Positions 10,640-62,192 of a stretch of DNA of 64,000 nt are shown here, piece after piece (position 1 is the stretch's first letter; each line of letters begins with the position of its first letter). The translations under genes and the position numbers were made by a program. Source of the stretch: Parachlamydiales bacterium. Its GTDB lineage: Bacteria; Chlamydiota; Chlamydiia; Chlamydiales; Parachlamydiaceae. A model generated the notes under the pieces. It was not told the DNA's origin. It was given only the letters and a program-made list of their open reading frames with translations, and ran no database searches. The stretch covers positions 15,819-79,818 of the forward strand of contig CAVPVT010000053.1 of NCBI GenBank assembly GCA_963709145.1. The letters run 5' to 3'.

Positions 10640-11960
10640 AAAAGTTTTAATCGTCGATGATGAAAACTTAGTGAGAAAGTTTGTCGCTGAAGTTTTGCGC
10701 GGTAAAAATCTTGATGTTGCAATGGCTTCAAATGGGCAAGAAGCCCTAAAACTCATTAAAGATTCTGTGTTTGACTTGATTATCACCGACATGAAAATGC
10801 CCGATCTCACAGGGATCGACATCATAAAAAAGGTCAAAGAGCTATCGCCTAGCTCCATCGTTGTCGTTTTGACAGGTTTTGGCAGCATTGAAAATGCTGT
10901 GGAAGCGATGCGGGTGGGGGCATTTAACTACTTGATCAAGCCCGTTTCTCCTGACATGATTGAAACTTTGGTGGACAAGGTTGAAGAGCATTTGACGCTC
11001 GTCAATGAAAATCAATATTTCCGTTCCGAAGCCAGAAAGAAAGTGGGCAGCAATATCGGTGTCATTGCCCGAAGTCCGACAATGCAAGCCGTCATGAAAC
11101 AAGTCCAACAGGTGGCTAAAAGCAACGCAAACGTATTTATCACGGGTGAATCAGGGACCGGTAAAGAAGTGATTGCCCATGCCATCCACTATCAGTCCCC
11201 CAGAGCCATTGCACCCTTTATCAAAGTCAACTGTGCGGCGATTCCCGAAACACTGATTGAATCTGAGTTTTTTGGACATGAAAAAGGAGCTTTTACAGGG
11301 GCGAATGCAAAACGTTTGGGGCGTTTTGAACTTGCGAACACTGGAACTTTGCTTTTAGATGAAATCACTGAAGTGCCGCAAGGGCTGCAGGCTAAATTAT
11401 TGCGAGTGATCCAAGAACAGGAATTTGAACGGGTAGGAGGCAATAAACCTGTTAAGGTCAATGTGCGACTCATTTCCACTTCCAATCGGGATATCCAAGC
11501 CGCAATTAGAGAAAAAATATTACGCGAAGATCTCTTTTACCGATTAAATGTCGTGCCGATCCATTTGGCACCTTTGCGAGAAAGAAAGGAAGATATCTTG
11601 CCTTTAGCCGATTATTTTTTGACAACATTCTGCAATGAAAATCATTACCCAGTCAAAAAACTATCTAAAGATGCTCAAAAAAAGCTTTTGGCCTACCATT
11701 GGCCAGGAAATGTGAGAGAGCTTGGCAATATTATTGAACGGGCTGTTGTAATGGATACGACTGGCACGATCAACGCAAGCCAATTGTACATCGATGATTC
11801 TTCTTTAGGTACTCCCCGCCTTTCTTTGCAAGACCTTGAGAAACGGTTGATCATCGAAACCTTAGAAGCGCAAAACCATGATCGGATTGAAACTGCAAAA
11901 GCTTTGGGGATGACTCTAAAGACATTGAAAACTAAATTAGAACATTATTCCTTAGAATAG
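10629..11960 (+). CDS. sigma-54-dependent response regulator (NtrC family; CtcC/AtoC-like)
   Basis: 443-aa ORF with a receiver domain (VLIVDDE ... ITDMKMPD) and an AAA+ sigma-54 interaction domain (GESGTGKE; GAFTGA loop in EKGAFTGAN; LLLDEI). It ends in a C-terminal HTH. Confidence 0.85.
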   Translation: MAIEKVLIVDDENLVRKFVAEVLRGKNLDVAMASNGQEALKLIKDSVFDLIITDMKMPDLTGIDIIKKVKELSPSSIVVVLTGFGSIENAVEAMRVGAFNYLIKPVSPDMIETLVDKVEEHLTLVNENQYFRSEARKKVGSNIGVIARSPTMQAVMKQVQQVAKSNANVFITGESGTGKEVIAHAIHYQSPRAIAPFIKVNCAAIPETLIESEFFGHEKGAFTGANAKRLGRFELANTGTLLLDEITEVPQGLQAKLLRVIQEQEFERVGGNKPVKVNVRLISTSNRDIQAAIREKILREDLFYRLNVVPIHLAPLRERKEDILPLADYFLTTFCNENHYPVKKLSKDAQKKLLAYHWPGNVRELGNIIERAVVMDTTGTINASQLYIDDSSLGTPRLSLQDLEKRLIIETLEAQNHDRIETAKALGMTLKTLKTKLEHYSLE

Positions 11961-11976
11961 ACTTAAAAAGCGCTTT

Positions 11977-12657
11977 ATGGTCATTATTTTTGATCTTGAT
12001 GACACCTTGTATGATGAGTCACAATTTATCCGAAGCGGCTTTAAGGCTGTCGCTAAATATCTTGCCCCTCTACTCAACCTTAACCAAGAAAACATTGTTT
12101 CCGACCTTGAAAAAGAATGTGCTCAACAACGCGATTTGGTGTTCAACCGCTTTTTAGCCAAACATAAAATCACATCGGAGCAAGTGATCGATCATTGTGT
12201 AGGCATCTACCGCTACAATGAACCCTCTCTTTCCCTTTATCCTGAAGCGCTCCCCTGCTTTGAACGATTGGAGAATTATCCCCTTTATGTTCTCACAGAT
12301 GGGAATCGGATTGTTCAATGGAATAAATTTTTGGCCCTCGGTTTGCAACCGATCATGAAAAAATGTGTCTGCACTGATGAATATGGGCTATACCGCAACA
12401 AACCGTCTTCCTACTGCTTTGAAAAAATTTGCGAATGGGAAAAAATTTCCCCCTCGCAAGTTGTATATGTCGCGGATAATCCCTACAAAGATTTTATTGG
12501 AATAAAACCTTTAGGTTTTCGCACAGTGCGAGTGCTGACAGGAGCCAATGCCAAAGCTTGGGTATTTCCACGCTGGGATGGGGATATGAAAATTATGAAT
12601 TTAGGGGCACTGGATGTCCCGATGTTGAAAAAATTAATTAGGATTAACAATGCTTGA
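11977..12657 (+). CDS. HAD-superfamily hydrolase
   Basis: 226-aa ORF with HAD motif I at the N-terminus (IIFDLDDTLYD) and a late acidic motif (VYVADNPYKD). It starts 16 nt after the regulator stop and overlaps the next gene by 8 nt. Confidence 0.65.
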   Translation: MVIIFDLDDTLYDESQFIRSGFKAVAKYLAPLLNLNQENIVSDLEKECAQQRDLVFNRFLAKHKITSEQVIDHCVGIYRYNEPSLSLYPEALPCFERLENYPLYVLTDGNRIVQWNKFLALGLQPIMKKCVCTDEYGLYRNKPSSYCFEKICEWEKISPSQVVYVADNPYKDFIGIKPLGFRTVRVLTGANAKAWVFPRWDGDMKIMNLGALDVPMLKKLIRINNA

Positions 12658-18702: not shown

Positions 18703-19845
18703 TCAAGAATATCGAAACTCTGAAGTCTTAATTTTTGTTTTTTTGGTCAGATTTAAGACAGGTTTTAACCAATAACGAGTGTGGCGGAGTTCTCCCGTCT
18801 TCACTAAAGCTCCTTTTTCCACTAGATCGGTTAAATCGCGCGTTGCTGTTGCTCTGGAGGTCTTTGCAATTTTAATATAATTCTCAGCACTTAATCCCCC
18901 TTGAAAGCCCCTTAATCCCTCTGCAAACATTCTTAATAAAACTTTTTCCTGACGCAAATTGAGTTGCCCAGAGAGCTCTGTAAGTATCTTTGATTTTTCA
19001 ATCAAAAAGTAAAGAAGTCTCATTGATTCGTCTTGAGCCTGTAAAATCACGTCAGAAAAAAACTCTACCCAATGTCCAATCTCTAAGGTGCGATTACATT
19101 TTTCCAAGGCGGCGTAGTACTCTTTTTTTCGCTTTTCTAATACCTTAGATACTGCAATTAAAATAGGTTGTTCAATCCCTTGAGACAGAATTTTTTCAAC
19201 TAAGATCCTCCCAATTCTACCATTTCCATCCTCGAAAGGATGAATGCTTTCAAAATAAACATGGGCAATAGAGGCTCTTACGAGTATGGATTCAGATGAT
19301 CGTGTTGAATTAAACCAATCAATAAAAGCGGTCATCTGCTCGGGGACATTCGACGACGGAGGCGCCTCAAAAAAAACTTTGCGTGAGTCATATCGATGCG
19401 AAATAATCTGCATGGGTTCTTCATGAGTGCGATATTTGCCACTATTCGCAAGATCAGATTGACCGTCAAATAGCTCAGAATGCCATTTGAAAAGCATTTC
19501 GTGATTCAAAGGTTTATCAAAGGAATCATAAACACTGCAGAGAAGTTTGGCCATTCGAGATTCTTTATTGGCTTCTTGCTTTCGAAGAGTTTTCAAACCA
19601 AAATGCTGCTTGATTGAGGATTGCAAACTTTCTCTATCGAGGATTTCGCCTTCAATTCTGGAGCTTTTAAGTCCCTCCGTACTAAGGATCTCGACAACAA
19701 ATCCCTGGTAATCTTTCTCATCTATACTTTTTAGGAACGCGAATGCACCGCCAATACCCAATAGAAATTGCCTTTCTCTTCGGGATATCCTAGCCGGCTC
19801 ATAATTAAAGTGGGGCCAATCTGGAAGCTCCCAATTCCAAGGCAT
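18703..19845 (-). CDS. Fic family protein (AMPylase type) with C-terminal winged-helix domain
   Basis: 380-aa ORF with the canonical Fic motif HPFEDGNGRIGR. An upstream inhibitory-helix-type motif S-x-x-x-E-G occurs in KSSRIEGE. The C-terminal DNA-binding-like segment reads TSRATATRDLTDLVEKGALV. Confidence 0.85.
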   Translation of the reverse strand: MPWNWELPDWPHFNYEPARISRRERQFLLGIGGAFAFLKSIDEKDYQGFVVEILSTEGLKSSRIEGEILDRESLQSSIKQHFGLKTLRKQEANKESRMAKLLCSVYDSFDKPLNHEMLFKWHSELFDGQSDLANSGKYRTHEEPMQIISHRYDSRKVFFEAPPSSNVPEQMTAFIDWFNSTRSSESILVRASIAHVYFESIHPFEDGNGRIGRILVEKILSQGIEQPILIAVSKVLEKRKKEYYAALEKCNRTLEIGHWVEFFSDVILQAQDESMRLLYFLIEKSKILTELSGQLNLRQEKVLLRMFAEGLRGFQGGLSAENYIKIAKTSRATATRDLTDLVEKGALVKTGELRHTRYWLKPVLNLTKKTKIKTSEFRYS

Positions 19846-19919
19846 GAGTTATAGACCTCTATTCTATAACTCAAATTTATACATAAACGTGAGTTATAGA
19901 GCAAGGCTCTATAACTCAC
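19845..19919. promoter_or_regulatory. two inverted repeats sharing the half-site TGAGTTATAG, directly upstream of or overlapping the fic start
   Basis: IR1 is TGAGTTATAG-N9-CTATAACTCA (19845-19873). IR2 is GTGAGTTATAGAG-N5-CTCTATAACTCAC (19889-19919). Both arms are perfect. Confidence 0.4.
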
Positions 19920-19947
19920 GCGCTGCTTTTCCATATGCCCTGATAGC

Positions 19948-29395: not shown

Positions 29396-29464
29396 ACCTC
29401 TTTTTAAGTTGAATGTCTTGTAATTCTTATTATAACTCTCTTAAAAGGTTAGGACTAGAAAAAA

Positions 29465-29537
29465 CGCACCGAAGAGGGCTCGAACCTCCAACCACCCGGT
29501 TCGAAGCCGGGTACTCTATCCATTGAGCTATCGGTGC
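29465..29537 (-). tRNA. tRNA-Arg (anticodon UCG)
   Basis: The cloverleaf folds by hand: acceptor GCACCGA/TCGGTGC, anticodon arm CCCGG-CUUCGAA-CCGGG, T arm GGAGG-TTCGAGC-CCTCT. No encoded CCA. Confidence 0.9.
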
Positions 29538-29635
29538 AGAACTTGGTATAATAGAGGATTCAACGATTTATGGATAGCTCAGCAATTGCTGGGTAATAGA
29601 ATGAGTTCAGTTAGCCTGGAAAATGGAAAGAGCTT

Positions 29636-30766
29636 CTGATATCATCATTAAATGAATGGAAACGGTCAGAAGGGATTGTGATGAAAGTGTTGCCTTCTCA
29701 GGGATGGATAACGCAAAGAATCAAAAAAAGAAAGTATCTATCTAATTATCATTGGCTTTTAAAACCCTTTGCGTCTTTGCGTTTTATTTATCTGAATCTA
29801 AATTAAATGCCTCGTTCAAAAGTATCCTCAGTCGGTGGGTATTTGGCGAGGACTAATATGGTCATTAAATTTTGAGCAGCAATATGACATCATATGAATG
29901 GAAACGGTCAGAAGGGATTGTGATGCAAGTGTTGCCTTCTCAGAGATGGATAACGCAAAGAAGCAGAGACGCAAAGGCGCAAAGAATCAAAAAAAGAAAG
30001 TATCTATCTAATTATCATTGGTTTGTAAAATCCTTTGCGCCTTTGCGCCTTTGCCTCTTTGCGTTTTATTTATCTGAATCTAAATTAAATGCCTCGTTCA
30101 AAAGTATCCTCAGTCGGTGGGTATTTGACGAGGACTAATATGGTCATTAAATTTTGAGCAGCAATATGACATCATATGAATGGAAACGGTCAGAAGGGAT
30201 TGTGATGCAAGTGTTGCCTTCTCAGAGATGGATAACGCAAAGAATCAAAAAAAGAAAGTATCTATCTAATTATCATTGGTTTGTAAAATCCTTTGCGCCT
30301 TTGCGTCTTTGCCTCTTTGCGTTTTATTTATTTGAATCTAAATTAAATGCCTCGTTCAAAAGTATCCTCAGTCGGTGGGTATTTGGCGAGGACTAATATG
30401 GTCATTAAATTTTGAGCAGCAATATGACATCATATGAATGGAAACGGTCAGAAGGGATTGTGATGCAAGTGTTGCCTTCTCAGGGATGGATAACGCAAAG
30501 AAGCAGAGACGCAAAGGCGCAAAGAATCAAAAAAAGAAAGTATCTATCTAATTATCATTGGCTTTTAAAACCCTTTGCGCCTTTGCGCCTTTGCCTCTTT
30601 GCGTTTTATTTATCTGAATCTAAATTAAATGCCTCGTTCAACAAGTATCCTCATTCGGTGGGTATTTGGCGAGGGCTAATATGGTCATTAAATTTTGAGC
30701 AGTAATATGACATCATACGAATGGAAACGGTCAGAAGGGATTGTGATGCAAGTGCTGCCGTTTCAG
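29636..30766 (+). repeat. tandem array of four units (about 242, 282, 258 and 283 bp), each re-copying the recO start region and containing a long hairpin
   Basis: The recO start context (ATGACATCATATGAATGGAAACGGTCAGAAGGGATTGTGATGCAAGTG) recurs at 29884, 30166, 30424 and 30707, with a degenerate copy at ~29642. Each unit carries an AACGCAAAG.../...CTTTGCGTT inverted repeat, e.g. 29952-29987 pairing with 30030-30065. Confidence 0.9.
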
Positions 30767-31330
30767 GACGCTGACGCAATTTTTACGGTTTATACCCACG
30801 ATTTGGGTTTTGCGAAGTTTGTGCTTAAGTATGCTTTATCTTCCCGCCAAAGGGGGAAAGGTGTGCCTTCCCCTCTCGCGTTAACGGAATTCATTTATAG
30901 GCCCACAAGTGGAGAGTTATTGTCGTGTAAAGAGGCAACAGTTTTAGACTCCTTCCATGCTTTAAGAAAGAATCTGAGTCTAATAGAAGCAGGAGGAGCT
31001 CTTTTAAAGGCGTTGTATCAAACGCAACCTTTAGGAAAAGTTTCCGATAAATTGTATAAGCTGCTGCTCGTTTATTTGGATAAACTTCCTCAAGTAGAGG
31101 ATCCTAAAGTGTTGGTTGCCAGCTTTAAGCTTAAAATTTTACGCTACGAAGGGGTGCTTACCTTCCACAACCAAAATTTAGATCACCTTGAAGGGTTTCA
31201 TCCGGAAGAAGCCAAAATGTTGTTTGTAATGGCTCTTACACAATCTTTGGGAGATCTGAAGCCACTGCTCCTGACTGCCCCATTGGAAGAAAAAATCGAT
31301 CAACTGTTCAAAGAGTTTTCTGCAGGCTAA
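30707..31330 (+). CDS. recO: DNA repair protein RecO
   Basis: ORF 30695-31330, with the start set to ATG 30707. The N-terminal OB-fold pattern (SEGIVMQVLPFQDADAIFTVYTHDLGFAKFVLK) and the size fit RecO. Confidence 0.7.
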   Translation: MTSYEWKRSEGIVMQVLPFQDADAIFTVYTHDLGFAKFVLKYALSSRQRGKGVPSPLALTEFIYRPTSGELLSCKEATVLDSFHALRKNLSLIEAGGALLKALYQTQPLGKVSDKLYKLLLVYLDKLPQVEDPKVLVASFKLKILRYEGVLTFHNQNLDHLEGFHPEEAKMLFVMALTQSLGDLKPLLLTAPLEEKIDQLFKEFSAG

Positions 31331-31379: not shown

Positions 31380-31463
31380 GCGAAAGTGGCGGAATTGGTA
31401 TACGCGCTACTTTGAGGTGGTAGTGAGGGAAACCTCGTGGGGGTTCAAGTCCCCCCTTTCGCA
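31380..31463 (+). tRNA. tRNA-Leu (anticodon GAG)
   Basis: The cloverleaf folds by hand: acceptor GCGAAAG/CTTTCGC, anticodon arm CTACT-TTGAGGT-GGTAG, a long variable arm, T arm GGGGG-TTCAAGT-CCCCC. Confidence 0.9.
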
Positions 31464-45132: not shown

Positions 45133-45238
45133 ACAGCGTTTTAAAATGATTGAACTAGAAGGCATTGCGAAATATACTGAACTTTTACATGCAGCCAATT
45201 TAAGTAGAAGAAATTTATTGGTAAGTTAGCGGTTGAAA

Positions 45239-46081
45239 ATGAAGACTTCTCTCGAAATCTCTGAAATAAATTGGAATCAAGAATCGGAACAGAAAAATCT
45301 TATCGCCTATCTTGAACTGCATGAAACCCAAGCACTATTCCTTCTTGGCAATATCCAAAGTCATTTTCAACCATCTTTTGTCTATGTTGCGAAGGAAAAA
45401 AAGCGAATAGTCGGGGTGTGCGGTTTCTATCCAACCTTTCAATCCTGCACCATTTTTTCTGAACACTCTGGAGCATCGAAAGCATTTGCGCAAATTGTGT
45501 TGAAAAAGCATGCCTCCGTGAATGCATTGTTGGGAATGGCTAATATGATCAAGCCTGCTTATCAAGAGTTTGTGGCTCAAGGGCGCAAGCCGATCAATTC
45601 TCCAGAAATGGATTTTTTTGAACTATCCATGAAGAACTTCAAGCCTTTCTTTTTACCTGACGCTGTCATTCACCCGGTCACTGAAAAAGATGTAGATTCT
45701 GTCGCAAGATTGCAGCGTCTTATTCACAATGATCCTATTGATGATCCACTCACAGAAGAAGAACGCGTGAAGGTGCGGTCAAGTTTGGTTTCATTTTGCC
45801 TGGAAGTCGATGGAAAAATTGTCGCAGTCGCCACTAGCAATGGACTTGCTATCCACGCCTTTCAAATTTTAGGCGTTGCTACAGAGCCTGCTTTTCAACG
45901 GAGAGGCTATGCAAAAGCACTTTGCTCGCATCTAATTGATTTCATGCAAAAACAGGGCGCAGAAAAAGCAATTATCTTTACTGATGAAGAAAATGTTGCT
46001 GCTCAAAAATGTTATCGCGATTTAGGATTTCAAATCACCGATCGGTATTATGTCGGTATTTTTCAGCCAGTGGCTCAATAA
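45239..46081 (+). CDS. GNAT family N-acetyltransferase
   Basis: ORF 45233-46081, with the start set to ATG 45239. The acetyl-CoA binding motif is VATEPAFQRRGYAKAL, followed by CYRDLGF. Confidence 0.7.
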   Translation: MKTSLEISEINWNQESEQKNLIAYLELHETQALFLLGNIQSHFQPSFVYVAKEKKRIVGVCGFYPTFQSCTIFSEHSGASKAFAQIVLKKHASVNALLGMANMIKPAYQEFVAQGRKPINSPEMDFFELSMKNFKPFFLPDAVIHPVTEKDVDSVARLQRLIHNDPIDDPLTEEERVKVRSSLVSFCLEVDGKIVAVATSNGLAIHAFQILGVATEPAFQRRGYAKALCSHLIDFMQKQGAEKAIIFTDEENVAAQKCYRDLGFQITDRYYVGIFQPVAQ

Positions 46082-61925: not shown

Positions 61926-61998
61926 GCGGGTGTAACTCAGTTGGTAGAGCGTCACCTTCCCAAGGTGAATGTCGTGAGTTCGAACCTCATCACCCGCT
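61926..61998 (+). tRNA. tRNA-Gly (anticodon CCC)
   Basis: Hand-folded: acceptor GCGGGTG/CACCCGC, anticodon arm TCACC-TTCCCAA-GGTGA, T arm GTGAG-TTCGAAC-CTCAT. Confidence 0.9.
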
Positions 61999-62025
61999 AA
62001 GAGATTACGATTGTTTTATTTAAGT

Positions 62026-62097
62026 GCGGGTGTAGCTCAGTGGTAGAGCATCACGTTGCCAACGTGAGGGTCGTGAGTTCGAACCTCATCGCCCGCT
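62026..62097 (+). tRNA. tRNA-Gly (anticodon GCC)
   Basis: Hand-folded: acceptor GCGGGTG/CGCCCGC (one G-U pair), anticodon arm TCACG-TTGCCAA-CGTGA. Confidence 0.9.
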
Positions 62098-62120
62098 TTG
62101 TGAAATTTGAATTCTTATCC

Positions 62121-62192
62121 GCGGGCGTAGCTCAGCGGTAGAGCATCACGTTGCCAACGTGAGGGTCGTGAGTTCGAGCCTCATCGCCCGCT
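62121..62192 (+). tRNA. tRNA-Gly (anticodon GCC), second copy
   Basis: Hand-folded: acceptor GCGGGCG/CGCCCGC, anticodon arm TCACG-TTGCCAA-CGTGA. It differs from the previous copy at a few positions. Confidence 0.9.

What the first reader, a model, noticed from the sequence alone, without database searches (positions are those of the whole stretch)
29636..30766. Four-unit tandem array that re-copies the recO start and embeds long (GCAAAG)n/(CTTTGC)n hairpins
Seen: the recO ribosome-binding region, ATG and first ~20 codons (MTSYEWKRSEGIVMQVLP) are repeated at 29884, 30166 and 30424 before the real gene at 30707. A degenerate copy lies at ~29642. Unit lengths are about 242, 282, 258 and 283 bp. 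Each unit contains an inverted repeat AACGCAAAGA...AAT / AT...TCTTTGCGTT around a ~42-nt A/T-rich loop. In the long units the arms are 36 nt (29952-29987 pairs with 30030-30065, about 32 of 36 positions complementary). The arms are themselves built from 8-9-nt CCTTTGCG-type sub-repeats. Unit length differences map to gain or loss of these sub-repeats. The array creates three 80-97-aa ORFs (29872, 30154, 30412) that begin like RecO and then diverge. It is not CRISPR-like because there are no unique spacers. Inference: this is a minisatellite generated by unequal recombination at the recO 5' end. It could titrate ribosomes or transcription, attenuate recO expression through the hairpins, or encode structured RNAs. 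The position between two tRNA genes (Arg at 29465-29537, Leu at 31380-31463) may be relevant.
Basis: partly seen in the sequence, partly recalled or inferred. Interest (0 to 1): 0.65.

Follow-up and report, generated by a model that had tools for sequence, protein, structure and literature searches.

The report
Amplified recO start with palindromic repeat
A short selfish-looking DNA palindrome sitting at the start of the repair gene recO has been copied four times in tandem together with the gene's promoter and first 19 codons, and the palindrome turns out to belong to a family found across many bacterial phyla that elsewhere wraps around a small nuclease gene.

Summary
Between tRNA-Arg and recO lie one degenerate and three full copies of a 258-283-bp unit. 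Each unit is a 98-138-nt palindrome (H), 88 nt of recO upstream sequence and the first 56 nt of recO. The intact gene follows. Unit lengths differ only by whole 8-nt sub-repeats in the H arms.

The reading as a recombination-driven minisatellite is supported: a 540-bp higher-order repeat at 98%, mosaic variants and a diverged edge unit. A function in recO control is not supported. The closest relative lacks any insert. Three other relatives carry unrelated palindromic or sub-repeat inserts in the same spacer.

New point: H is not recO-specific. Its arms, (RC-GCAAAG)n, define a palindrome class found in at least 120 genome stretches from many phyla. Of 74 independently fetched GxxExxY (Pfam PDDEXK_3) nuclease genes, 55 are flanked by inverted repeats that are mostly built from these octamers or close variants. 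H is an ORF-less, MITE-like member of this class. I found no description of the class in the papers I could search.

Copy number could not be checked with reads. Most likely the array is a young, probably neutral by-product of this element.

The parts
29464..29538 (-). tRNA-Arg(tcg). It is the ancestral left neighbour and not part of the repeat.
   Evidence: ARAGORN; Rfam tRNA, 66.7 bits. The same gene sits in the same place in L001, L002 and L003.
29539..29629 (.). Unique spacer X between the tRNA and the array. It holds sigma-70-like hexamers at 29523-29552 and 29617-29645.
   Evidence: X is not significantly similar to the unit's upstream part B or to the L002 spacer. Promoter-like sites come and are consensus matches only.
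29630..29697 (+). A0: a degenerate copy of the recO start. The ATG context is lost, a 2-nt deletion and a 2-nt insertion are present, and Q15 is changed to K. It has no upstream part B.
   Evidence: Alignment A1; repeat family D2.
29698..29795 (.). H0: a short palindrome with 1 octamer in the left arm and 2 in the right.
   Evidence: Fold -20.9 kcal/mol, z = -2.7. A Logan contig covering 29740-29915 is identical.
29796..29939 (+). B+A copy 1: 88 nt of recO upstream sequence plus ATG 29884 and 56 nt of recO coding sequence.
   Evidence: Family D3, 99% to the reference copy.
29940..30077 (.). H1: the full palindrome TCAGA...TCTGA, with 4 + 4 octamers and a 42-nt A/T-rich loop.
   Evidence: Inverted repeat I1. 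RNA fold -57 kcal/mol, z = -8.7; DNA fold -33.5 kcal/mol, z = -7.3.
30078..30221 (+). B+A copy 2 (ATG 30166). It carries the TTGACG-17-TAAATT promoter-like site at 30125-30153.
30222..30335 (.). H2: a palindrome with a 1-octamer left arm and a 4-octamer right arm.
   Evidence: Fold -22.5 kcal/mol, z = -1.5.
30336..30479 (+). B+A copy 3 (ATG 30424).
   Evidence: Reference copy of family D3.
30480..30617 (.). H3: a full palindrome, 98% identical to H1 in register.
   Evidence: Family D1, 30307-30606 against 29767-30066, 98%. Fold -58.2 kcal/mol, z = -8.3.
30618..30706 (+). B4: the upstream region of the real recO gene, 89 nt.
   Evidence: A Logan contig covering 30673-30829 is identical.
30707..31330 (+). 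recO, 207 aa, intact. Repeat homology ends at about 30756 (codons 17-18, TCAG).
   Evidence: Pfam RecO_N, 1e-9. Homologues at 52-68% identity.
31380..31463 (+). tRNA-Leu(gag). It is the ancestral right neighbour and not part of the repeat.

Best explanation
The array is a young, recombinationally active tandem amplification of a 258-283-bp block. It was nucleated by an ORF-less palindromic element (H) that sits at the 5' end of recO. H belongs to a family of palindromes whose arms are tandem octamers, (RC-GCAAAG)n facing (CTTTGC-GY)n.

Proposed history:
1. Shown: H lies after codon 17-18 of a recO start. The join falls inside a TCAG(R) that is shared by the recO codons TTT-CAG-GAC and by the outer end of the palindrome (TCAGA...TCTGA).
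2. Inferred: a microhomology-mediated or template-switch event at the hairpin produced the first direct duplication of upstream region plus first 56 nt of recO on the far side of H. An intact gene with its own upstream region therefore survives downstream.
3. Supported by pattern: unequal crossing-over, gene conversion and octamer slippage then expanded and partly homogenised the array.

Only the last copy continues into RecO. The three upstream pseudo-starts open 80-97-aa junk frames that read through H. H1 and H3 are very stable hairpins followed by TTTTATTTAT, so they may stop transcripts started in upstream units (inferred, untested). The array most likely has no selected function. It is collateral of a selfish or unstable repeat.
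For: Anatomy and periodicity.

Evidence for array dynamics:
- A 300-nt segment repeats at offset 540 with 98% identity.
- CAGAG versus CAGGG and the loop variant group units (0,3) and (1,2), while arm length groups (0,2) and (1,3).
- All length differences are multiples of 8.
- The edge copy A0 is the most diverged.

Evidence that the array is lineage-specific:
- The closest relative, L002 (RecO 68%), has only about 80 nt between tRNA-Arg and recO and no hairpin.
- L001, L003 and L204 have different palindromic or sub-repeat inserts ending 5-25 nt before the ATG.
- L001 and L204 RecO are 88% identical, yet their upstream DNA is unrelated from about -10.

Evidence that H is a member of a wider family:
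- At least 120 genome stretches from many phyla carry (CTTTGCSN)3.
- 44 of these 120 have the inverted partner. 36 or more of the 44 are in the same polarity as H.
- They share flanks CAC/GTG or AAC/GTT.
- Three sites lie in one Chlamydiae MAG.

Link to a gene:
- GxxExxY / PDDEXK_3 ORFs lie adjacent in 5 of the 120 stretches.
- In 80 independently fetched GxxExxY genes, 32 have exact runs within 300 nt.
- 55 of 74 have a flanking inverted repeat scoring at or above the cut-off I used, mostly built from these octamers or close variants.
- Runs are about 120-fold enriched next to the gene: 97 flank hits against 3 in 98 kb of background.

Tandem arrays that embed an octamer run together with adjacent host sequence recur elsewhere. 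L119 Dolichospermum has 81 nt x 6 at 99%, re-copying the 3' end of a gene upstream of hypF. L172 and L187 also carry such arrays.
Against: - The first duplication event cannot be reconstructed. The leftmost unit has a recO fragment but no upstream part B. Spacer X is not detectably related to B or to the relative's spacer. It therefore stays open which copy is ancestral and whether B arrived with H.
- Long flanking duplications are not a general property of the family: only 1 other case among 93 hairpins.
- No other H copy and no GxxExxY gene lies in the 64-kb window. Mobility of H in this genome is therefore not shown.
- Copy number in a single molecule is unverified.
- Neutrality is an inference from lack of conservation, not a measurement.
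Confidence: 0.62

Rival explanations
1. The array is an adaptive regulatory device for recO. Tandem decoy promoters, leaders and start codons, each closed by a terminator-like hairpin, would tune or buffer RecO expression or produce small RNAs or peptides.
For: Each unit carries the recO upstream region, with a -35/-10-like pair scored in unit 2, and a start codon. H1 and H3 are very stable and are followed by a T-rich tract. Three of the four differences between the pseudo-starts and the real start are synonymous (read from the sequence).
Against: There is no conservation. The closest relative has no insert and other relatives have unrelated inserts. H0 and H2 fold weakly. The 42-nt loop fails the terminator scan. 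There is no Rfam match. The pseudo-ORFs have no Pfam match. The units are so similar that no selection signal can exist.
Confidence: 0.1
2. The copy number or unit order is an assembly or population artefact. A metagenome assembler may have chained unit variants from co-existing strains, and any one genome may hold fewer units.
For: The sequence is found only as low-depth fragments in soil metagenomes. A 144-150-nt stretch (B+A) is 99% identical between copies 1 and 3. Short reads therefore cannot phase the four H variants. No run with useful coverage is available.
Against: Four distinct H variants and three distinct B+A variants exist and fit one consistent path. An independent contig spans H0 into B and A1 with no differences, so at least one duplication junction is real. 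Comparable arrays occur in isolate genomes, for example L119 Dolichospermum sp. FACHB-1091.
Confidence: 0.15
3. The units are serial site-specific integrations of a small circular element (H + B + a recO-start att copy). This would work like an integron cassette or an integrative element that restores the 5' end of its target gene.
For: The structure reads as A-[H-B]-A-[H-B]-A, that is, an element flanked by direct copies of the target. Spacer X is unrelated to B. H begins with AAC and ends with GTT, like the outer parts of attC core sites (read from the sequence).
Against: No integrase gene is near. The RYYYAAC/GTTRRRY cores are not matched: the sequence is GGATAAC / GTTTTAT, and most family members have CAC/GTG. 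Other family members lack long flanking direct repeats. The higher-order 540-bp repeat fits unequal crossover better.
Confidence: 0.05

Closest known systems
REP / REPIN elements with their RAYT (Y1 HUH transposase) genes
   Same: Both are short intergenic palindromes. Both occur as ORF-less copies and as inverted pairs flanking a small (about 125-150 aa) nuclease-type gene. They look like domesticated or selfish repeats.
   Different: The associated gene here is a PD-(D/E)XK protein (GxxExxY, PF13366), not an HUH transposase. The arms are tandem octamers of variable number and there is no GTAG head. Nearly the same octamer is shared across phyla, whereas REPs are specific to a species or RAYT.
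MITEs (for example Correia elements and cyanobacterial Nezha) and cyanobacterial short tandemly repeated sequences (STRR heptamers). This comparison is from my own knowledge.
   Same: H is small and non-coding, has terminal inverted repeats and lies in an intergenic spacer. Short tandem sub-repeats appear in intergenic DNA of the same phyla.
   Different: No target-site duplication or transposase was identified. Dispersal in this genome is not shown. The STRR literature describes heptamers, not inverted octamer arms around a nuclease gene.
Bacterial minisatellites / VNTR and microhomology-mediated tandem duplications
   Same: Units are head-to-tail at 94-99% identity. There is higher-order structure, a diverged edge unit and length change by sub-repeat slippage.
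   Different: The unit contains a gene's upstream region and start codon plus a long palindrome, so the gene start is re-created several times. Polymorphism between strains could not be tested.
23S rRNA intervening sequences that carry a small ORF inside a long stem. This comparison is from my own knowledge.
   Same: A small ORF sits exactly in the loop of a long inverted repeat. This is the GxxExxY architecture seen in L078, L155, L137 and L143.
   Different: The elements here are in intergenic DNA, not in rRNA. The stem is made of octamer repeats. The window copy has no ORF.

Membership tests
CRISPR array | Identical repeats separated by unique spacers of similar length, usually with cas genes nearby | tested here: not met
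   The 'spacers' (B+A) are themselves 94-100% identical copies. No CRISPR family appears in the Rfam scan.
Minisatellite / tandem duplication array | Head-to-tail copies of one unit with high identity | tested here: met
   TRF period 258/282, 3.0/1.9 copies, score 1129/944; spacings 242/282/258/283.
Minisatellite / VNTR | Copy number varies between strains | not testable with these tools
   No second assembly of this organism exists: the RecO cluster has 1 member on 1 contig. Sequencing runs hold only fragments.
Octamer-armed palindromes linked to GxxExxY genes (class defined here) | 5' arm of 1 or more GCNAAG-NN octamers and a complementary 3' arm, in the polarity GCAAAG...CTTTGC, with palindromic flanks (C/A)AC and GT(G/T) | tested here: met
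   H1 and H3 read AAC-GCAAAG-AA-GCAGAG-AC-GCAAAG-GC-GCAAAG, loop, then four CTTTGC units and GTT. The same layout appears in 36 or more loci. The GCAGAG variant is also seen in GxxExxY flanks.
Octamer-armed palindromes linked to GxxExxY genes (class defined here) | GxxExxY/PDDEXK_3 ORF in the loop or adjacent | tested here: not met
   The H loop is 42 nt. No GxxExxY homologue lies in the 64-kb window (tblastn). H is therefore an ORF-less member at most.
MITE | Many dispersed copies in the same genome, a target-site duplication and a related autonomous element | tested here: inconclusive
No TSD was recognised. ORF-bearing relatives exist in other genomes. The relative L001 does have two copies of its own palindrome within 2.3 kb.
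REP / RAYT | REP hairpin with a conserved GTAG head, associated with a Y1 HUH transposase | tested here: not met
   The associated protein is TIGR04256 / PF13366. No GTAG motif appears in the flanks.
Integron attC / cassette array | IntI integrase with attI; attC with RYYYAAC ... GTTRRRY cores; different cassettes | tested here: not met
   The cores are not matched (GGATAAC / GTTTTAT). The units are identical rather than different cassettes. No integrase gene lies among the neighbouring genes.
Intrinsic (Rho-independent) terminator | Short G+C-rich stem, 3-8-nt loop and a U tract directly after the stem | tested here: inconclusive
   The scan finds none because the loop is 42 nt. Stable stems and TTTTATTTAT after the stem are present. 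Chlamydiae MAG copies with 10-nt loops and T tracts look like terminators.
Known structured RNA (Rfam) | Match at the family gathering score | tested here: not met
   Only sub-threshold plant miRNA hairpin models match. None matches in 18 other loci with such hairpins.

The most novel reading that the evidence does not exclude
The octamer-armed palindromes, (RC-GCNAAG)n facing their complement, would be a previously undescribed class of selfish or mobile elements spread across phyla. Their autonomous form would carry a GxxExxY (PDDEXK_3) nuclease exactly in the loop, and that nuclease would recognise or cut the octamer arms. ORF-less derivatives such as H would then be able to seed local tandem amplification of adjacent host gene ends. 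Examples are the recO start here and the 3' end of a gene upstream of hypF in Dolichospermum.
Probability: 0.4. Interest if true: 0.75.

Novelty: new variant of a known kind. Interest (0 to 1): 0.5.

Why it matters
The array by itself is a curiosity. It shows how a palindromic repeat can land inside the first codons of a gene without killing it, because the gene start is re-created downstream. Such a locus can mislead gene callers, which may report three false RecO-like ORFs, and can break short-read assemblies.

The wider point is more useful. A large protein family of unknown function (GxxExxY / PF13366) is tied here to a specific DNA structure: inverted arrays of one octamer that is conserved across phyla. 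This gives a concrete substrate to test for that nuclease. It also suggests a repeat-plus-nuclease system parallel to REP/RAYT. If confirmed, it would explain many unexplained intergenic hairpins in soil and cyanobacterial genomes.

Tried and rejected
- Exact-protein look-ups of RecO (both possible starts) and of hpf found no other assembly.
- The RecO homologue search returned only four relatives.
- Sequencing-run searches gave only three soil runs with 12% of words, and none for the flanking 9.4 kb. Copy number and transcription therefore could not be checked.
- A metagenome scan for the H loop found nothing.
Genome-wide dispersal of H in this organism is therefore unknown.
- Rfam gave only sub-threshold miRNA-hairpin noise.
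- I tried to decide which copy is ancestral by aligning spacer X to B and to the L002 spacer. Neither is above shuffled controls.
- I considered a junction at the ACGCAA shared by recO (GACGCAA) and the H arm. I rejected it because the 7-9 nt before it differ far more than the rest of the unit. The join is better placed at TCAG(R).
- I tested whether long flanking duplications are typical of the family. They are not: 1 other case in 93.
- Literature searches for the octamer strings, GxxExxY, PDDEXK_3 and related phrases found no description of the repeat.
- A search for the relative's assembly accession, to fix the taxonomy, found nothing.
- The organism is probably an environmental Chlamydiota. 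It has a ParC matching the NCBIfam model PRK09631, which from memory I associate with Chlamydiae, and it is syntenic with GCA_039806825.1. I could not verify this.

Full report
**1. What is in the sequence**

The region between tRNA-Arg(tcg) (29464-29538, minus strand) and tRNA-Leu(gag) (31380-31463) holds recO (30707-31330). It was identified by Pfam RecO_N at 1e-9 and by four homologues. Upstream of recO, Tandem Repeats Finder reports one array of period 258/282 (score 1129/944). The repeat finder gives copies spaced 242, 282, 258 and 283 nt.

Reading the alignment of the units with the raw sequence, the order is:
- Unique spacer X, 29539-29629.
- A0, 29630-29697, a degenerate recO start.
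- H0, 29698-29795.
- B+A, 29796-29939.
- H1, 29940-30077.
- B+A, 30078-30221.
- H2, 30222-30335.
- B+A, 30336-30479.
- H3, 30480-30617.
- B4, 30618-30706.
- The real gene, from 30707.

B is 88-89 nt of recO upstream sequence. A is the ATG plus the first 56 nt of recO. H is a palindrome that runs from TCAGR to TCTGA.

The arm motif occurs 14 times against 0.64 expected and nowhere else in the window. One correction: the arm sub-repeat has period 8 (ACGCAAAG / CCTTTGCG), not 6. Unit lengths differ by 24 nt (three octamers of the left arm, unit 2), by 24 + 16 nt (unit 0) and by one single-base insertion.

**2. The hairpins**

H1 and H3 fold at -57 and -58 kcal/mol as RNA (z = -8.7 and -8.3). H1 folds at -33.5 kcal/mol as DNA. 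H0 and H2 have a one-octamer left arm and fold weakly (-21 and -22.5; z = -2.7 and -1.5). The loop is 42 nt and A/T-rich. The stem is followed by TTTTATTTAT. The terminator scan finds nothing because of the loop size. Rfam gives only sub-threshold matches to plant miRNA hairpin models, which amounts to 'a long hairpin' and nothing more.

**3. Signs of array dynamics**

- A 300-nt segment (29767-30066) recurs at offset 540 (30307-30606) with 98% identity, while the copy in between is 77% in register. The last expansion therefore copied two units at once.
- Variants are shared in incompatible ways. CAGAG versus CAGGG and the loop variant group units (1,2) against (0,3). Arm length groups (1,3) against (0,2). 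This needs recombination, gene conversion or recurrent octamer slippage.
- The edge copy A0 is the most diverged and has lost its ATG context. This is the usual pattern in arrays homogenised by unequal exchange.
- The real start differs from all pseudo-starts at four positions (TAC/TAT, CTG/TTG, CCG/CCT, TTT/TCT). Three of the four are synonymous.

**4. Where recO homology ends**

Pseudo-copies read ...GTG TTG CCT TCT CAG RGA TGG ATA ACG CAA AG. The gene reads ...GTG CTG CCG TTT CAG GAC GCT GAC GCA ATT.

Homology stops at TCAG(G). The same TCAGR is the outer end of the palindrome and pairs with TCTGA on the right. So the join lies in a 4-5-nt microhomology. I considered a join at the ACGCAA shared by recO and the arm. 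I rejected it because the bases before it are too different.

I could not decide which copy is ancestral. Spacer X is no more similar to B, or to the spacer of the closest relative, than shuffled sequence is.

**5. Relatives**

RecO has only four relatives in the protein collection. Their loci keep the synteny hpf - tRNA-Arg - recO - tRNA-Leu - DUF155. The tRNA genes are therefore ancestral neighbours, not part of the feature.

| Locus | RecO identity to window | Spacer between tRNA-Arg and recO |
|---|---|---|
| L002 | 68% | about 80 nt, no repeat |
| L003 | 58% | about 300-nt G+C-rich nested palindrome ending 4 nt before the ATG |
| L001 | 52% | about 290-nt palindrome with heptamer and octamer sub-repeat arms ending 12 nt before the ATG |
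| L204 | 51% | contig starts in (ACGGGC)n repeats 25 nt before the ATG |

L001 and L204 RecO are 88% identical, yet their DNA is unrelated from about -10 upstream. The L001 element has a second copy 2 kb away, upstream of the TPS gene, so it is a dispersed repeat there.

Conclusion: this spacer repeatedly acquires palindromic inserts. The window's array is lineage-specific. No conserved regulatory structure exists.

**6. What H is**

These came from Acidobacteriota (many Pyrinomonadaceae), Chloroflexota, Cyanobacteria, Verrucomicrobiota, Planctomycetota, Sorangium, Sphingomonas, Bacteroidota and Chlamydiota. My rough estimate of the chance expectation, from motif information content and collection size, is only a few hits.

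In 44 of the 120 a GCAAAG-NN run lies within 400 nt in inverted orientation. 36 or more of the 44 have the polarity of H (GCAAAG arm first). Loops are 10-150 nt. The palindromic flanks were not part of my query: (t)ctCAC...GTGag(a), or AAC...GTT as in H. One Chlamydiae MAG has three such sites. These have 10-25-nt loops and T tracts and look like terminators.

Clustering the ORFs near these sites gave one small recurrent neighbour directly beside or inside the hairpins in 5 loci. It is TIGR04256 'GxxExxY protein' (E = 1e-43) = Pfam PDDEXK_3.

For the reverse test I fetched 80 GxxExxY genes from metagenome contigs by protein patterns only.
- 32 of 80 have exact two-or-more-octamer runs within 300 nt.
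- 55 of 74 with usable flanks score at or above the cut-off I used for an inverted repeat between their 5' and 3' flanks. These repeats mostly have the form CTCAC-(GCNAAG-RC)n, with variants GCCAAG, GCAGAG, GCGAAG and ACACAAAG.
- The runs are about 120-fold denser next to the gene than in the rest of the same contigs: 97 flank hits against 3 in 98 kb.

In clear cases the ORF fills the loop exactly. The arm ends at the start codon and the other arm begins after the stop codon (L155, L078).

Caveat: the 80 genes are the closest relatives of proteins that I had found next to such runs. The fraction may therefore be lower for the whole Pfam family.

The window has no GxxExxY gene. H is thus an ORF-less, MITE-like member. 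I found no paper describing this link. PDDEXK_3 is listed as 'function unknown, multiple transfers' (PMC3424549). No solved structure matches by sequence.

**7. Is re-copying of a gene end typical of the family?**

Long direct duplications flanking a hairpin are rare: one other case in 93. Tandem arrays that embed an octamer run do recur, however.
- L119 (Dolichospermum sp. FACHB-1091, an isolate) has six 81-nt units at 99% identity. Each holds the last 14 codons and stop of the upstream gene plus a GCAAAG run, and the array lies just before hypF.
- L172 has 70-nt hairpin units x 2.5 and x 3.1 on both sides of its GxxExxY gene.
- L187 has 171 nt x 2.4.

The window array is therefore one of a small set of similar accidents. 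This points to the repeat itself as the trigger, through fork stalling, slippage or template switching. That step is inference.

**8. Mechanism and its status**

- Shown: the structure, the junction microhomology, the array dynamics, the lack of conservation, family membership of H and the family's link to GxxExxY.
- Inferred: a hairpin-stimulated first duplication that kept an intact recO. Later unequal crossover. Possible termination at H1 and H3 of transcripts started in upstream units. No selected function.
- Not testable here: copy number per molecule and transcription. Only three identical fragments from low-depth soil metagenomes map: 29740-29915, 30673-30829 and 30761-30955. They confirm the H0-B-A1 and B4-recO joins but nothing more. 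B+A copies 1 and 3 are 99% identical over 144 nt. A short-read metagenome assembly could therefore have chained strain variants.

**9. Verdict**

The 'minisatellite by unequal recombination' reading is supported. The functional ideas are unsupported. The tRNA position is incidental, except that the spacer is an insertion hotspot.

The array is a new variant of known kinds: a tandem duplication seeded by a palindromic repeat. The more interesting result is the palindrome family and its tie to GxxExxY nucleases, which deserves its own study.

Noticed in passing
L124-L203 (80 metagenome loci); also L012, L013, L016, L067, L078: Genes for GxxExxY / PDDEXK_3 proteins (about 125 aa) are flanked by inverted arrays, mostly of the octamer GCNAAG-NN, often so that the ORF exactly fills the loop. 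55 of 74 show a flanking inverted repeat at my score cut-off. 32 of 80 have exact runs within 300 nt. Runs are about 120-fold enriched over the rest of the contigs. I found no description of this in the searchable literature.
   Followed up: yes
L119:5463-5948 (Dolichospermum sp. FACHB-1091): Six 81-nt tandem units at 99% identity lie directly upstream of hypF. Each re-copies the last 14 codons and stop of the upstream gene plus a (GCAAAG-NN)3 run. This is an independent parallel to the recO array.
   Followed up: partly
L172:1-173 and 577-791; L187:1881-2295: Tandem arrays of whole small hairpin units (70 nt; ACACAAAG-type octamers) lie on both sides of a GxxExxY gene. A 171-nt x 2.4 array with octamer runs lies downstream of another.
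   Followed up: partly
window 30707-31330 (RecO): This RecO is 207 aa and lacks a segment of about 23 aa. In all four homologues (226-227 aa) that segment holds the Cys-x2-Cys ... Cys-x2-His zinc-finger motif. The protein may be a zinc-finger-less RecO variant.
   Followed up: partly
L001:9701-9955 and 11902-12096: The relative GCA_039806825.1 has two copies of its own palindromic element. The inner arms have CACGGAG-type octamers and the outer arms have AGAAGTC/TTCTGAA heptamers. One copy lies before recO and one before the TPS gene, so it is a dispersed repeat there.
   Followed up: partly
L001, L003, L204 versus L002 (tRNA-Arg/recO spacer): Three lineages carry unrelated palindromic or sub-repeat inserts ending 5-25 nt before the recO ATG. 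The closest relative has none. L001 and L204 (RecO 88% identical) share no upstream sequence. The spacer is an insertion hotspot.
   Followed up: yes
window 46213-46371: A large palindrome lies between two convergent ORFs (45233-46081 +, 46382-47701 -). It has 64-nt arms, 89% complementarity and a 31-nt spacer with an inner GGGGTA...TACCCC hairpin. It has no tandem sub-repeats. It could be a bidirectional terminator or another repeat element.
   Followed up: no
window 61926-62192: Three tRNA-Gly genes lie in tandem (ccc, gcc, gcc), about 95 nt apart. TRF reports them as a 95-nt repeat.
   Followed up: no
window 19842-19921: A pair of adjacent nested palindromes (GAGTTATAGA...TCTATAACTC twice) lies right after the ORF ending at 19845.
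   Followed up: no
soil metagenome runs X1-X3 laid on window 30029-30065 and 30291-30323: Short contigs from other organisms match only the octamer arm, one at depth 18, and continue into unrelated sequence. Such octamer runs are therefore common in these soils.
   Followed up: no
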